The notes beneath the pieces were generated by a model. The model was given only the letters and a program-made list of their open reading frames with translations, made no database searches and had not been told where the DNA came from. Made by a program: the position numbers and the translations under genes. Positions 1,975 to 43,990 of a stretch of DNA of 64,000 bases are shown piece by piece. The number at the start of each line of letters is the position of its first letter. The stretch's first letter is position 1. The stretch lies in NCBI RefSeq assembly GCF_009914755.1, contig NC_060927.1. One strand, 5' to 3'. The DNA comes from the human T2T-CHM13v2.0 reference genome, Homo sapiens.

Positions 1975-2670
1975 ATTTTTTTATTTATTATTATTGTTTT
2001 TATTATTATACTTTAAGTTTTAGGGTACATGTGCACAATGTGCAGGTTACTTACATATGTATACATGTGCCATGCTGGTGTGCTGCACCCATTAACTCGT
2101 CATTTAGCATTAGGTATATCTCCTAATGCTATCCCTCCCCCCTCCCCCCACCCCACAACAGTCTCCAGAGTCTGATGTTCCCCTTCCTGTGTCCATGTGT
2201 TCTCATTGTTCAATTCTCACCTATGAGTGAGAACATGCAGTGTTTGGTTTTTTGTCCTTGCGATAGTTTACTGAGAATGATGATTTCCAATTTCATCCAT
2301 GTCCCTACAAAGGACATGAACTCATCATTTTTTATGGCTGCATAGTATTCCATGCGTATATGTGCCACATTTTCTTAATCCAGTCTATCATTGTTAGACA
2401 TTTGGGTTGGTTCCAAGTCTTTGCTATTGTGAATAGTGCCCCAATAAACATACGTGTGCAAGTGTCTTTATAGCAGCATGATTTATAGTCCTTTGGGTAT
2501 ATACCCAGTAATGGGATGGCTGGGTCAAATGGTATTTCTAGTTCTAGATCCCTGAGGAATCGCCACACTGACTTCCATAATGGTTGAACTAGTTTACAGT
2601 CCCACCAACAGTGTAAAAGTGTTCCTATTTCTCCACATCCTCTCCAGCACCTGTTGTTTCCTGACTTTTT
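1975..2670 (-). mobile_element. Nested younger (L1PA3-like) L1 3' end inside L1#1
   Basis: A second T-tail and 3'UTR begin at cctgacttttt (~1970), with younger diagnostics (gctggtgtgc, tttagcattagg, acaacagtc); the upper boundary is approximate. Confidence 0.85.
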
Positions 2671-5600
2671 AATGATCGCCATTCTAACTGGTGTGAGATG
2701 ATATCTCATTGTGGTTTTGATTTGCATTTCTTTGATGGCCAATGATGATGAGCATTTTTTCATGTGTCTGTTGGCTGCATAAATGTCTTCTTTTGAGAAG
2801 AGTCTGTTCATGTCCTTTGCCCACTTTTTGATGGGGTTGTTTGTTTTTTTCTTGTAAATTTGTTTGAGTTCTTTGTAGATTCTGGATATTAGCCTTTTGT
2901 CAGATGGGTAGATTGCAAAAATTTTCTCCCATTCTGTAGGTTGCCTGTTCACTCTGATGGTAGTTTCTTTTGCTGTGCAGAAGCTCTTTAGTTTAATTAG
3001 ATCCCATTTGTCAATTTTGGCTTTTGTTGACATTGCTTTTGGTGTTTTAGACATGAAGTCCTTGCCCATGCCTATGTCCTGAATGGTATTGCCTAGGTTT
3101 TCTTCTAGGGTTTTTATGGTTTTAGGTCTAACATTTAAGTCTTTAATCCATCTTGAATTAATTTTTGTATAAGGTGTAAGGAAGGGATCCAGTTTCAGCT
3201 TTCTACCTATGGGTAGCCAGTTTTCTCAGCACCATTTATTAAATAGGGAATCCTTTCCCTATTTCTTGTTTTTGTCAGGTTTGTCAAAGATCAGACGGTT
3301 GTAGATGTGTGGTGTTATTTCTGAGGGCTCTGTTCTGTTCCATTGGTCTATATCTCTGGTTTGGTACCAGTACCATGCTGTTTTGGTTACTGTAGCCTTG
3401 TAGTATAGTTTGAAGTCAGGTAGCGTGATGCCTCCAGCTTTGTTCTTTTGGCTTAGGTTTGTCTTGGCAATGTGGGCTCTTTTTTGTTTCCATATGAACT
3501 TTAAAGTAGTTTTTTCCAATTCTGTGAAGAAAGTCATTGGTAGCTTGATGGGGATGGCATTGAATCTATAAATTACCTTGGGCAGTATGGCCATTTTCAC
3601 GATATTGAATCTTCCTATTCATGAGCATGGAATGTTCTTCCATTTGTTTGTGTCCTCTTTTATTTCGTTGAGCAGTGGTTTGTAGTTCTCCTTGAAGAGG
3701 TCCTTCACATCCCTTGTAAGTTGGATTCCTAGGTATTTTATTCTCTTTGAAGCAATTGTGAATGGGAGTGCACTCATGATTTGGCTCTCTGTTTGTCTGT
3801 TATTGGTGTATAGGAATGCTTGTGATTTTTGCACATTGATTTTGTATCCTGAGACTTTGCTGAAGTTGCTTATCAGCTTAAGGAGATTTGGGCTGAGATG
3901 CTGGGGTTTTCTAAATATACAATCATGTCATCTGCAAATAGGGACAGTTTGACTTCCTCTTTTCCTAATTGAATACCCTTTATTTCTTTCTCCTGCCTGA
4001 TTGCCGTGGCCAGAACTTCCAACACTATGTTGAATAGGAGTGGTATGAGAGGACATCCCTGTGTTGTGCCCGTTTTCAAAGGGAATGCTTCCAGTTTTTG
4101 CCCATTCAGTATGATATTGGCTGTGGGTTTGTCATAAATAGCTCTTATTATTTTGAGATACGTCCCATCAATACCTAGTTTATTGAGAGTTTTTAGCATG
4201 AAGGGCTGTTGAATTTTGTCAAAGGCCTTTTCTGCATCTATTGAGATAATCATGTGGTTTTTGTATTTGGTTCTGTTCATATGATGGATTACATTTATTG
4301 ATTCGCATATGTTGAATCAGCCTTGCATCCCAGGGATGAAGCCAACTTGATCGTGGTGGATAAGCTTTTTGATGTGCTGCTGGATTCGGTTTGCCAGTTT
4401 TTATTGAGGATTTTTGCATCAATGTTCATCAGGGATATTGGTCTAAAATTTTCTATTTTTTTGTTGTGTCTCTGCCAGGCTTTGGTATCAAGATGATGCT
4501 AGCCTCATAAAATGAGTTAGGGAGGATTCCCTCTTTTTCTATTGATTGGAATAGTTTCAGAAGGAATGGTACCAGCTCCTCTTTATACCTCTGGTAGAAT
4601 TCGGCTGTGAATCCGTCTGGTCCTAGACTTTTTTTGGTTGGTAGGCTATTAATTACTGCCTCAATTTCAGAGCCTGTCATTGGTCTATTCAGGGATTCAA
4701 CTTCTTCCTGGTTTAGTCTTGGGAGGGTGTATGTGTCCAGGAATTTATCCATTTCTTCTAGATTTTCTAGTTTATTTGCATAGAGGTGTTTATAGTATTC
4801 TCTGATGGTAGTTTGTATTTCTGTGAGATCGGTGGTGATATCCCCTTTATCATTTTTTATTGCGTCTATTTGATTCTTCTCTCTTTTCTTCTTTAGTAGT
4901 CTTGCTAGTGGTCTATCAGTTTTGTTGATCTTTTCAAAAAACCAGCTCCTGGATTCATTGATTTTTTTGAAGGGCTTTTTGTGTCTCTATCTCCTTCAGT
5001 TCTGCTCTGATCTTAGTTATTTCTTGCCTTCTGCTAGCTTTTCAATGTGTCTGCTCTTGCTTCTCTAGTTCTTTTAATTGTGATGTTAGGGTGTCGATTT
5101 TAGATCTCTCCTGCTTTCTCTTGTGGGCATTTAGTGCTATAAATTTCCCTCTACACACTGCTTTAAATGTGTCCCCGAGATTCTGGTATGTTGTGTCTTT
5201 GTTCTCATTGGTTTCAAAGAACATCTTTATTTCTGCCTTCATTTTGTTAGGTACCCAGTAGTCATTCAGGAGCAGGTTGTTCGGTTTCCATGTAGTTGAG
5301 CGGTTTTGAATGAGGGTCTTAATCCTGAGTTCTAATTTGATTGCACTGTGGTCTGAGAGACAGTTTGTTTTAATTTCTGTTCTTTTACATTTGCTAAGGA
5401 GTGCTTTACTTCCAACTATGTGGTCAATTTTGGAATAAGTGCAATGTGGTGCTGAGATGAATGTATATTCTGTTGATTTGGGGTGGAGAGTTCTATAGAT
5501 GTCTGTTAGGTCCGCTTGGTGCAGAGGTGAGTTCAATTCCTGGATATCCTTGTTAACTTTCTATCTCATTGATCTGTCTCATGTTGACAGTGGGGTGTTA

Positions 5601-42066: not shown

Positions 42067-43083
42067 TTACATTTTGGCATGATTTTGCAGCGGCTGGTAC
42101 CGGTTGTTCCTTTCCATGTTTAGCGCTTCCTTCAGGAGCTCTTTTAGGGCAGGCCTGGTGGTGACAAAATCTCTCAGCATTTGCTTGTCTGTAAAGTATT
42201 TTATTTCTCCTTCACTTATGAAGCTTAGTTTGGCTGGATATGAAATTCTGGGTTGAAAATTCTTTTCTTTAACAATGTTGAATATTGGCCCCCACTCTCT
42301 TCTGGCTTGTAGGGTTTCTGCCGAGAGATCCGCTGTTAGTCTGATGGGCTTCCCTTTGAGGGTAACCCGACCTTTCTCTCTGGCTGCCCTTAACATTTTT
42401 TCCTTCATTTCAACTTTGGTGAATCTGACAATTATGTGTCTTGGAGTTGCTCTTCTCGAGGAGTATCTTTGTGGCGTTCTCTGTATTTCCTGAATCTGAA
42501 CGTTGGCCTGCCTTGCTAGATTGGGGAAATTCTCCTGGATAATATCCTGCAGAGTGTTTTCCAACTTGGTTCCATTCTCCGCATCACTTTCAGGTACACC
42601 AATCAGACGTAGATTTGGTCTTTTCACATAGTCCCATATTTCTTGGAGGCTTTGCTCATTTCTTTTTATTCTTTTTTCTCTAAACTTCCCTTCTCACTTC
42701 ATTTCATTCATTTCATCTTCCATTGCTGATACCCTTTCTTCCAGTTGATCGCATCGGCTCCTGAGGCTTCTGCATTCTTCACGTAGTTCTCGAGCCTTGG
42801 TTTTCAGCTCCATCAGCTCCTTTAAGCACTTCTCTGTATTGGTTATTCTAGTTATACATTCTTCTAAATTTTTTTCAAAGTTTTCAACTTCTTTGCCTTT
42901 GGTTTGAATGTCCTCCCGTAGCTAAGAGTAATTTGATCGTCTGAAGCCTTCTTCTCTCAGCTCGTCAAAATCATTCTCCATCCAGCTTTGTTCCGTTGCT
43001 GGTGAGGAACTGCCTTCCTTTGGAGGAGGAGAGACGCTCTGCGTTTTAGAGTTTCCAGTTTTTCTGTTCTGTTTTTTCCCCAT
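42067..43083 (-). pseudogene. L1#4 ORF1 with premature TAG at 42922-42924
   Basis: ATG at 43081-43083; frame reads ...RRSNYS*LRE. Confidence 0.9.
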
Positions 43084-43990
43084 CTTTGTGGTTTTATCTA
43101 CTTTTGGTCTTTGATGATGGTGATGTACAGATGGGTTTTCGGTGTGGATGTCCTTTCTGTTTGTTAGTTTTCCTTCTAACAGACAGGACCCTCAGCTGCA
43201 GGTCTGTTGGAATACCCTGCCGTGTGAGGTGTCAGTGTGCCCCTGCTGGGGGGTGCCTCCCAGTTAGGCTGCTCGGGGGTCAGGGGTCAGGGACCCACTT
43301 GAGGAGGCAGTCTGCCCGTTCTCAGATCTCCAGCTGAGTGCTGGGAGAACCACTGCTCTCTTCAAAGCTGTCAGACAGGGACATTTAAGTCTGCAGAGGT
43401 TACTGCTGTCTTTTTGTTTGTCTGTGCCCTGCCCCCAGAGGTGGAGCCTACAGAGGCAGGCAGGCCTCCTTGAGCTGTGGTGGGCTCCACCCAGTTCGAG
43501 CTCCCGGGCTGCTTTGTTTACCTAAGCAAGCCTGGGCAATGGCGGGCGCCCCTCCCCCAGCCTCGCTGCCGCCTTGCAGTTTGATCTCAGACTGCTGTGC
43601 TAGCAATCAGCGAGATTCCGTGGGCGTAGGACCCTCCGAGCCAGGTGTGGGATATAGTCTCGTGGTGCGCCGTTTTTTACGCCGGTCTGAAAAGCGCAAT
43701 ATTTGGGTGGGAGTGATCCGATTTTCCAGGTGCGTCCGTCACCCCTTTCTTTGACTCGGAAAGGGAACTCCCTGACCCCTTGCGCTTCCCAGGTGAGGCA
43801 ATGCCTCGCCCTGCTTCGGCTCGCGCACGGTGCGTGCACCCACTGGCCTGCGCCCACTGTCTGGCACTCCCTAGTGAGATGAACCTGGTACCTCAGATGG
43901 AAATGCAGAAATCACCCGTCTTCTGCGTCGCTCATGCTGGGAGCTGTAGACCGGAGCTGTTCCTATTCGGCCATCTTGGCTCCTCCTCCC
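43084..43990 (-). promoter_or_regulatory. L1 5'UTR internal sense/antisense promoter, CpG-rich, YY1 site at 43969-43978
   Basis: Complete 5'UTR with retained CpGs; ggccatcttg motif. Confidence 0.85.
43539..43754 (+). CDS. L1 ORF0 (71 aa), intact reading frame
   Basis: MAGAPPPASLPPCSLISDCCASNQRDSVG...RHPFL; 216 nt from ATG to TGA; expression unknown. Confidence 0.8.
   Translation: MAGAPPPASLPPCSLISDCCASNQRDSVGVGPSEPGVGYSLVVRRFLRRSEKRNIWVGVIRFSRCVRHPFL

What the first reader, a model, noticed from the sequence alone, without database searches (positions are those of the whole stretch)
2441..43340. Patchwork of shared non-consensus variants among three independently inserted L1s of different subfamilies: candidate local gene-conversion network
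Seen in sequence: L1#1 (PA5/6-like), L1#3 (PA4-like) and L1#4 (PA2-like) have different TSDs and subfamily diagnostics, yet share alleles pairwise in short patches. #1+#3: MFIGALF (2441/27898), gtgcaag (2461/27918), ttccataat, KAMSTKAK (3030/28481), the multi-base [11 protein letters not shown] (4261-4290/29713-29742), gtgggggtct, gaatctgatc, ttaggctttcc and gatggttgcatac. #3+#4: WNQAKC (27863/38372), WLAT, PL for PH (taagcgg), ggtttgaagtc (31236/41752) and ctgagtgctggg. #1+#4: ESDAENG and a 7-T run that frameshifts ORF2. That these alleles are non-consensus rests on my recall of L1PA consensus sequences. Most are non-CpG changes and some span several bases, so recurrent mutation is unlikely. 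Inference: repeated short-tract ectopic gene conversion between co-oriented neighbours ~10-36 kb apart, continuing after the youngest (PA2) insertion and after the nested PA3 insertion. Conversion between neighbouring repeats is known for Alu, but this density across L1 subfamilies looks unusual.
Basis: partly seen in the sequence, partly recalled or inferred. Interest (0 to 1): 0.85.

Follow-up and report, generated by a model that had tools for sequence, protein, structure and literature searches.

The report
One L1-to-L1 conversion patch, not a network
Three neighbouring L1 retrotransposon copies mostly share ordinary family variants found in tens to thousands of other copies, but one 155-base patch shared by two of them carries changes seen nowhere else in the genome and looks like a real local copy-over (gene conversion), a process already known for repeats.

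Summary
The claim that the shared alleles are non-consensus fails for most of them.

Whole-genome counts show they are common:
- WNQAKC 28-mer: 868 places.
- 4582-T 30-mer: 1,640.
- gaatctgatc 24-mer: 120.
- KAMSTKAK 28-mer: 67.
- 5841-T, ESDAENG, ggtttgaagtc and ctgagtgctggg stretches: 39, 38, 23 and 7 other exact copies.

Nothing supports conversion involving L1#4.

One exception stands. L1#1 7081-7235 and L1#3 32527-32681 are identical over 155 bp, while 65 other copy pairs differ by 3-15 there. The tract carries two dinucleotide changes unique to this pair: the 26-mer occurs twice in the genome, against 1,768 places within 3 mismatches. A GENECONV-like permutation gives P=0.00025 for L1#1/L1#3 and 0.09 for each other pair. 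This is most likely one ectopic gene conversion, direction unknown.

A second patch (4265/4278) is weaker, because one chr7 copy also has it.

Verdict: partly supported, a known kind of event, modest interest.

The parts
1991..7385 (-). L1#1: 5'-truncated L1PA copy. It is the oldest of the three by estimated private divergence. Its ORF1 coiled-coil region (about 6633-6978) is very divergent from all other copies examined.
   Evidence: blastn and self-alignment; 3-way alignment; best genome-wide matches to 6740-6960 are only 91-93% identical.
27440..33069 (-). L1#3: L1PA copy that keeps its 5' terminus but has an internal 5'UTR deletion of about 520 bp. It is flanked by a 17-bp target-site duplication (27394-27410 / 33070-33086, one mismatch).
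37958..43990 (-). L1#4: full-length, youngest copy, with a 13-bp target-site duplication TCATCCCTACTTT (37945-37957 / 43991-44003). It lacks a 128-bp 5'UTR segment present in L1#1 and L1#3.
7081..7235 (-). Tract T1 in L1#1, at the 5'UTR/ORF1-start junction. It is 155 bp identical to L1#3 and carries GC at 7089-7090 and TG at 7161-7162, which no other copy found has.
32527..32681 (-). Tract T1 in L1#3, the partner of 7081-7235. It is bounded by differences at 32526 and 32682.
4253..4303 (-). Tract T2 in L1#1 (weak candidate): 51 bp identical to L1#3, with 4265-A and 4278-C.
   Evidence: The 30-mer occurs in 3 places genome-wide. The third carrier, on chr7, lacks the other shared alleles. Position 4265 varies among copies.
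29705..29755 (-). Tract T2 in L1#3, the partner of 4253-4303.

Best explanation
Three L1PA copies inserted independently, in the same orientation, within 42 kb.

Nearly all the alleles they share pairwise are ordinary. They were inherited from the evolving L1 source lineages, or are recurrent changes at variable, homopolymer or CpG sites.

On top of this, one short non-allelic (ectopic) gene conversion copied about 75-155 bp across the 5'UTR/ORF1-start junction between L1#1 and L1#3, which lie 25.4 kb apart. This presumably happened during homology-directed repair of a break in one copy, with the neighbour as template.

Shown: the identity of the tract, the uniqueness of its variants and its sharp boundaries. 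Inferred: the mechanism. Unknown: direction and date. A second tiny patch (4253-4303) may be another such event or a coincidence.
For: Common alleles, by exact whole-genome pattern counts:
- WNQAKC 28-mer: 868 places.
- 4582-T 30-mer: 1,640.
- gaatctgatc 24-mer: 120.
- KAMSTKAK 28-mer: 67.

Common alleles, by exact long matches among the 40 copies scored per search:
- 5841-T 61-mer: 39 others.
- ESDAENG 66-mer: 38 others.
- ggtttgaagtc 101-mer: 23 others.
- ctgagtgctggg 65-mer: 7 others.

In fetched copies, 4271-T is in 20 of 20, 4284-A in 19 of 20 and 5626-G in 5 of 6.

Tract T1:
- It has 0 differences over 155 bp. The 65 other pairs among 12 full-length copies differ by 3-15, and the 20 other pairs of older copies by 5-13.
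- It is flanked by 24 differences in the next 150 columns and by about 18% divergence in the coiled-coil region on the other side.
- The 101-mer 7081-7181 is exact only in the two local copies. The best other matches are 96%. All 4 fetched best matches differ exactly at 7089-90 and 7161-62.
- The 65-mer 7081-7145 is exact only in the two, of 40 scored.
- The 26-mer 7149-7174 occurs in 2 places genome-wide, against 1,768 within 3 mismatches, of which 3 are one mismatch away.
- Permutation of informative sites gives a run of 12 sites, P=0.00025, against 0.092 and 0.093 for the other pairs.

The two copies are not duplicates. There is no flank homology, L1#3 has its own target-site duplication, and the coiled-coil sequences are very different.
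Against: - Direction and age of T1 could not be set. Relatives of both copies carry the same base haplotype about equally rarely (1 of 16 and 2 of 18).
- T1 has no CpG, so it may evolve more slowly than average, which weakens the identity argument taken alone.
- Sequence searches score only 40 candidates and skip very common words, so only the 26-mer count is a complete census. The GC dinucleotide's uniqueness rests on 40 scored copies.
- L1#1 and L1#3 also share exact stretches of 191 bp (2947-3137) and 101 bp (2407-2507) that no other scored copy matches exactly. This could mean more exchange than I credit. However, other copies are only 1-2 mismatches away, and unrelated pairs of similar divergence reach identical runs of 182 bp at the 95th percentile and 218 bp at most.
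- The pairing of 3030-A with 6022-C was seen in no other listed carrier, which I explain only as recurrence.
- My panel of 47 copies was biased and small in the 5' part. No ape orthologues, other human haplotypes or reads could be examined.
Confidence: 0.75

Rival explanations
1. One reading: repeated short-tract ectopic conversion among all three L1s (L1#1-L1#3, L1#3-L1#4 and L1#1-L1#4), continuing after the youngest insertion, produced the whole patchwork.
For: T1 is real. T2's 30-mer occurs in only 3 places. L1#1 and L1#3 share exact 191-bp and 101-bp stretches not matched exactly elsewhere among scored copies. The 3030-A plus 6022-C combination was seen only in L1#1 and L1#3 among listed carriers.
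Against: All L1#3+L1#4 and L1#1+L1#4 alleles tested have many unlinked carriers. Most L1#1+L1#3 alleles do too. Several shared alleles are flanked within 3-10 bp by differences between the two copies (for example 4582 and the taagcgg site). Permutation P is 0.09 for both pairs that involve L1#4. A 191-bp identical run lies within the range of unrelated pairs.
Confidence: 0.07
2. No conversion at all. L1#1 and L1#3 share T1 because both descend, at least in this segment, from a very rare source lineage carrying the two dinucleotide changes, or by coincidence.
For: Single-step intermediates of the 7161-62 change exist in 3 unlinked copies. For T2, an unlinked chr7 copy does share the variants, so tiny lineages or recurrences occur. 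T1 has no CpG and may evolve slowly.
Against: The exact 26-mer occurs in only the two neighbours, out of 1,768 related places. Two members of a two-member lineage landing 25 kb apart in 3.1 Gb is very unlikely (inference). The two copies belong to clearly different lineages immediately beside the tract. Both also lack any private change across the 155 bp.
Confidence: 0.1
3. An assembly or polishing artefact copied a patch of one L1 onto the other in this assembly.
For: None from my calls.
Against: The two copies differ by about 7% overall and by about 16% right beside the tract, so long reads spanning them should not be confused (inference). The patch is a clean 155-bp block, not scattered single-base edits.
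Confidence: 0.03

Closest known systems
Non-allelic (interlocus) gene conversion between neighbouring transposable-element copies, best documented for Alu. I read passages of PMC8230782 and PMC6598467, both of which cite Aleshin & Zhi 2010 for enhanced conversion within about 10 kb.
   Same: A short tract of identity with shared non-diagnostic variants between two independently inserted copies of one repeat family that lie close together on one chromosome.
   Different: Here the partners are about 5.4-kb L1s of different subfamilies, about 93% identical and 25 kb apart, which is beyond the roughly 10 kb range quoted for Alu. Only one solid tract was found, not a dense pattern.
[quoted passage not shown] I saw this only as a citation and a one-line description in PMC1920257, which mentions tracts as small as 13 bp.
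   Same: It offers a mechanism: homology-directed repair of a break in one L1, using another L1 as template, yields short conversion tracts.
   Different: That is a cell-culture assay in mouse. The event here is a germline, fixed event inferred from sequence alone.
L1PA subfamily succession, in which diagnostic and transient alleles are inherited from evolving source elements
   Same: It explains most of the pairwise sharing: alleles present in tens to thousands of unlinked copies.
   Different: It does not explain T1, whose variants occur in no other copy.

Membership tests
Ectopic (non-allelic) gene conversion tract | A segment of much higher identity between two paralogues than in their flanks and than in other pairs. 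| tested here: met
   T1 has 0 differences in 155 bp, against 3-15 in 65 other pairs. There are 24 differences in the next 150 columns. Permutation P=0.00025.
Ectopic (non-allelic) gene conversion tract | Shared derived variants inside the tract that other family members lack. | tested here: met
   The 26-mer occurs in 2 places genome-wide, of 1,768 within 3 mismatches. The 65-mer with GC is exact only in the two, of 40 scored. All 4 fetched nearest copies lack both changes.
Ectopic (non-allelic) gene conversion tract | The partners are independent insertions, not products of a duplication. | tested here: met
   There is no flank homology. L1#3 has its own 17-bp target-site duplication. The coiled-coil regions differ by about 18%. 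No target-site duplication was found for L1#1.
Ectopic (non-allelic) gene conversion tract | The pre-conversion state is visible in orthologous loci of outgroup species or in other haplotypes. | not testable with these tools
   No ape genomes, human pangenome haplotypes or reads were available.
   L1#3/L1#4 and L1#1/L1#4 alleles are common genome-wide. Permutation P is 0.092 and 0.093.
Ordinary L1 lineage (subfamily) variants | The allele is carried by many unlinked copies across chromosomes. | tested here: met
   This is met for WNQAKC, 4582-T, gaatctgatc, KAMSTKAK, 5841-T, ESDAENG, ggtttgaagtc, ctgagtgctggg, 4271-T, 4284-A and 5626-G. It is not met for the T1 dinucleotides.
Segmental or tandem duplication of an L1-bearing segment | Homology extends into the flanks, with uniform divergence along the element. 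| tested here: not met

The most novel reading that the evidence does not exclude
L1#1 and L1#3, copies of different subfamilies only about 93% identical and 25 kb apart, may have exchanged several short patches over millions of years: T1, T2 and perhaps 2407-2613 and 2947-3137. In that case local homogenisation of old, diverged L1s reaches further in distance and divergence than the roughly 10 kb range described for Alu. It would also quietly distort subfamily calls and age estimates of L1 copies.
Probability: 0.2. Interest if true: 0.45.

Novelty: new member of a known kind. Interest (0 to 1): 0.25.

Why it matters
The main value is a caution. Alleles that look non-consensus against a remembered L1 consensus are usually ordinary lineage variants. 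A reference panel drawn by similarity search can also be badly biased: 4582-T was in 0 of 38 panel copies, yet its 30-mer has 1,640 exact copies genome-wide.

The one solid tract is a clean, datable example of ectopic gene conversion between diverged L1s 25 kb apart. Such events matter for L1 age estimates and subfamily calls. This one covers the 5'UTR/ORF1 start, but both elements are long dead, so no functional consequence is expected.

Tried and rejected
1. A panel of 47 genomic L1 copies was meant to define 'rare' alleles. It was chosen by similarity to L1#1 with a search that skips very common words. It lacked whole lineages, so its frequencies were misleading: 0/38 for an allele whose 30-mer has 1,640 exact copies, 0/10 for ESDAENG, 1/30 for ggtttgaagtc. 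I kept it only to list candidates and for pairwise controls.

2. Longest-identical-run statistics with a uniform rate gave P of 3e-4 to 2e-5 for several pairs. I rejected them after the empirical control: unrelated pairs reach 182 bp at the 95th percentile.

3. The minor-sublineage idea for L1#1, L1#3 and the chr7 copy was dropped. The chr7 copy shares only 4265-A and 4278-C plus the common 4284-A and 4582-T, and lacks 4137-A, 5626-G, 5841-T, 6022-C and all T1 variants.

4. I tried to infer the direction of T1 from relatives of each copy. This was uninformative, because the GACA state is a recurrent CpG decay product.

5. Segmental duplication was rejected.

6. Two sequence searches returned nothing because all their words are too common. 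For 27811-27893 the later exact count was 868. For 4072-4172 (4137-A) I only infer that it is common.

7. Earlier findings of this scan were not open to the session.

8. Literature: four searches found reviews and Alu studies but no paper on this locus. I did not find a genome-wide study of L1-L1 conversion in the held library. That shows only that these four searches did not list one.
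Full report
**What is there**

The window is human chr3 sequence (given by the hub) and is searchable as G000:C3. blastn of the longest masked L1 against the window finds three long co-oriented L1 copies on the minus strand, with their 3' ends at low coordinates:
- L1#1, about 1991-7385, 5'-truncated.
- L1#3, about 27440-33069, which keeps the 5' terminus but has an internal 5'UTR deletion of about 520 bp.
- L1#4, 37958-43990, full length.

Older 3' fragments lie at 1286-1975 and 20267-20545.

L1#4 has a 13-bp target-site duplication. L1#3 has a 17-bp one with one mismatch. None was found for L1#1. Outside the L1s and Alus the flanks share no homology, so these copies are not products of a segmental duplication. 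L1#4 lacks a 128-bp 5'UTR block that L1#1 and L1#3 keep. From memory, this matches the deletion described for young L1PA3/L1PA2 elements; I did not check that here. I had no reference consensus, so the PA2, PA4 and PA5/6 labels remain untested.

**The observation**

A MAFFT alignment of the three copies has 4,780 identical columns. L1#3=L1#4 at 199 columns, L1#1=L1#3 at 154 and L1#1=L1#4 at 123.

In a family that evolves as a succession of source lineages, all three patterns are expected without any exchange. The first two classes combine changes in the source lineage with the odd copy's private mutations. The third is mostly L1#3's private mutations. The only real question is whether the shared alleles are rare among other L1 copies.

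**A biased panel**

I collected 47 other genomic copies and scored every informative site. Most shared alleles were frequent in the panel. About 20 looked rare.

The panel proved unreliable. It was drawn with L1#1 as query by a search that skips very common words, and only 9-13 copies covered the 5' part. Alleles absent from the panel turned out to be abundant genome-wide (next section). From then on I relied on whole-genome exact pattern counts, exact long matches and a few tiny fetches.

**Genome-wide frequencies**

For the L1#3+L1#4 alleles:
- The WNQAKC 28-mer occurs in 868 places.
- L1#4's 101-mer with ggtttgaagtc has 23 other exact copies among 40 scored.
- L1#4's 65-mer with ctgagtgctggg has 7 other exact copies, and L1#3 itself is 2 mismatches away.
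- For the 121-mer covering WLAT and taagcgg, 17 copies are within 2-3 mismatches of L1#4, while L1#3 (6 mismatches) is not among the 40 listed.

For the L1#1+L1#4 alleles:
- The ESDAENG 66-mer has 38 other exact copies among 40 scored.
- The 7-T run is a one-base homopolymer expansion also present in panel copy L047.

For the L1#1+L1#3 alleles:
- The 4582-T 30-mer occurs in 1,640 places.
- The gaatctgatc 24-mer occurs in 120 places.
- The KAMSTKAK 28-mer occurs in 67 places.
- The 5841-T 61-mer has 39 other exact copies among 40 scored.
- 5626-G ('gtgggggtct') is in 5 of 6 fetched copies.
- 4271-T is in 20 of 20 and 4284-A in 19 of 20 fetched copies.
- 2441-C, 2461-A and 'ttccataat' occur in 6/46, 4/46 and 8/47 panel copies, and L035 has both of the first two.
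- The search around 4137-A returned nothing because all its words are too common. The 27811-27893 query behaved the same way and later counted 868, so I infer that 4137-A is common too.

**The exception, tract T1**

L1#1 7081-7235 and L1#3 32527-32681 are identical over 155 bp, bounded by differences at 7080 and 7236.
- In the same columns, the other 65 pairs among 12 full-length copies differ by 3-15. The 20 other pairs of older copies differ by 5-13.
- The next 150 columns hold 24 differences between L1#1 and L1#3. On the other side, the ORF1 coiled-coil region differs by about 18%.
- The 101-mer 7081-7181 is exact only in these two copies. The best other matches are 96%.
- The four best other copies, once fetched, differ from it exactly at 7089-90 (AG instead of GC) and 7161-62.
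- The 65-mer 7081-7145 is exact only in the two, of 40 scored.
- The 26-mer 7149-7174 occurs in exactly 2 places in the 3.1-Gb genome. Within 3 mismatches there are 1,768 places, and 3 of these are one mismatch away.
- A GENECONV-like permutation of the 475 informative sites singles out this tract: 12 consecutive sites supporting L1#1=L1#3, P=0.00025. The other two pairs give P=0.092 and P=0.093.

T1 spans the end of the 5'UTR and the first codons of ORF1, as the sequence shows.

Two copies that belong to different lineages right beside the tract share two otherwise unseen dinucleotide changes and no private change across 155 bp. The simplest account is one ectopic gene conversion between neighbours 25.4 kb apart.

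Direction is open. The nearest relatives of L1#1 and of L1#3 carry the closest base haplotype about equally rarely (2 of 18 and 1 of 16). That base state is a recurrent CpG decay product, so it says nothing about which copy was the donor.

**A weaker candidate, T2**

The 30-mer 4261-4290 occurs in 3 places: L1#1, L1#3 and one chr7 copy. Of its four differences from L1#4, two are common lineage alleles. Position 4265 is variable among copies, with A in 2 of 20 and T and G also seen.

The chr7 copy shares nothing else special with the pair. It lacks 4137-A, 5626-G, 5841-T, 6022-C and all T1 variants. T2 could be a second small conversion, a tiny source lineage plus coincidence, or recurrence. 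By my rough estimate a chance match is of the order of one in ten, so I give T2 about even odds.

- L1#1 and L1#3 share exact 191-bp (2947-3137) and 101-bp (2407-2507) stretches that no other scored copy matches exactly. However, other copies are only 1-2 mismatches away. Unrelated pairs of similar divergence show identical runs with a median of 112 bp, a 95th percentile of 182 bp and a maximum of 218 bp.
- None of the 65 other places with the 3030-A k-mer and none of the 98 other listed places with the 6022-C k-mer belong to the same copy. These counts (67 and 120) are small enough to be largely recurrent mutation among thousands of copies, so I read no lineage into them (inference).

**What is known**

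Non-allelic gene conversion between repeat copies is well described, mainly for Alu. It is enhanced within about 10 kb. I read passages of PMC8230782 and PMC6598467, both citing Aleshin & Zhi 2010. Breaks in a chromosomal LINE can be repaired from other LINEs; I saw Tremblay et al. 2000 only as a citation and a one-line description in PMC1920257. A 2026 preprint lists gene conversion among the processes that blur old L1 histories (one passage of PMC13192797). My four literature searches listed nothing on this locus.

**Verdict**

The 'network' is not supported. One conversion tract between L1#1 and L1#3 is well supported, and a second is possible. This is a new instance of a known process, of modest interest.

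Noticed in passing
window 6633-6978 (L1#1, ORF1 coiled-coil region): L1#1 is far more divergent here from every other copy examined (20-36 differences per 150 columns) than elsewhere. Its best genome-wide matches to 6740-6960 are only 91-93% identical, whereas L1#3's homologous stretch finds 94-97% matches. L1#1 also has a 9-bp insertion at 6964-6972 that all 11 other copies lack.
   Followed up: partly
window 32976 (L1#3), compared with 43369-43892 (L1#4): L1#3 keeps the L1 5' terminus (to 33069) but lacks about 520 bp of internal 5'UTR present in L1#4.
   Followed up: partly
window 43213 (L1#4), compared with 7252-7385 (L1#1) and 32698-32833 (L1#3): L1#4 lacks a 128-bp 5'UTR block present in the two older copies. 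Panel copies split the same way. From memory this resembles the deletion reported to let young L1s escape a KRAB zinc-finger repressor; I did not check that here.
   Followed up: no
window 43156-43744: The RefSeq 'enhancer' feature given by the hub lies entirely inside the 5'UTR of L1#4.
   Followed up: no
window 4265 and its homologues in 20 fetched copies (L049-L068): This one ORF2 position shows all four bases among the fetched copies (C in 16, A in 2, T in 1, G in 1), so it looks unusually mutable.
   Followed up: no
window 1286-1975 and 20267-20545: Two older L1 3'-end fragments (about 88-91% identical to the three copies). The first abuts the 3' end of L1#1, which may hide L1#1's target-site duplication.
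   Followed up: no
method: Similarity searches that skip very common words return a sample of repeat copies that under-represents the most abundant lineages. An allele in 0 of 38 such copies had 1,640 exact 30-mer copies genome-wide.
   Followed up: yes
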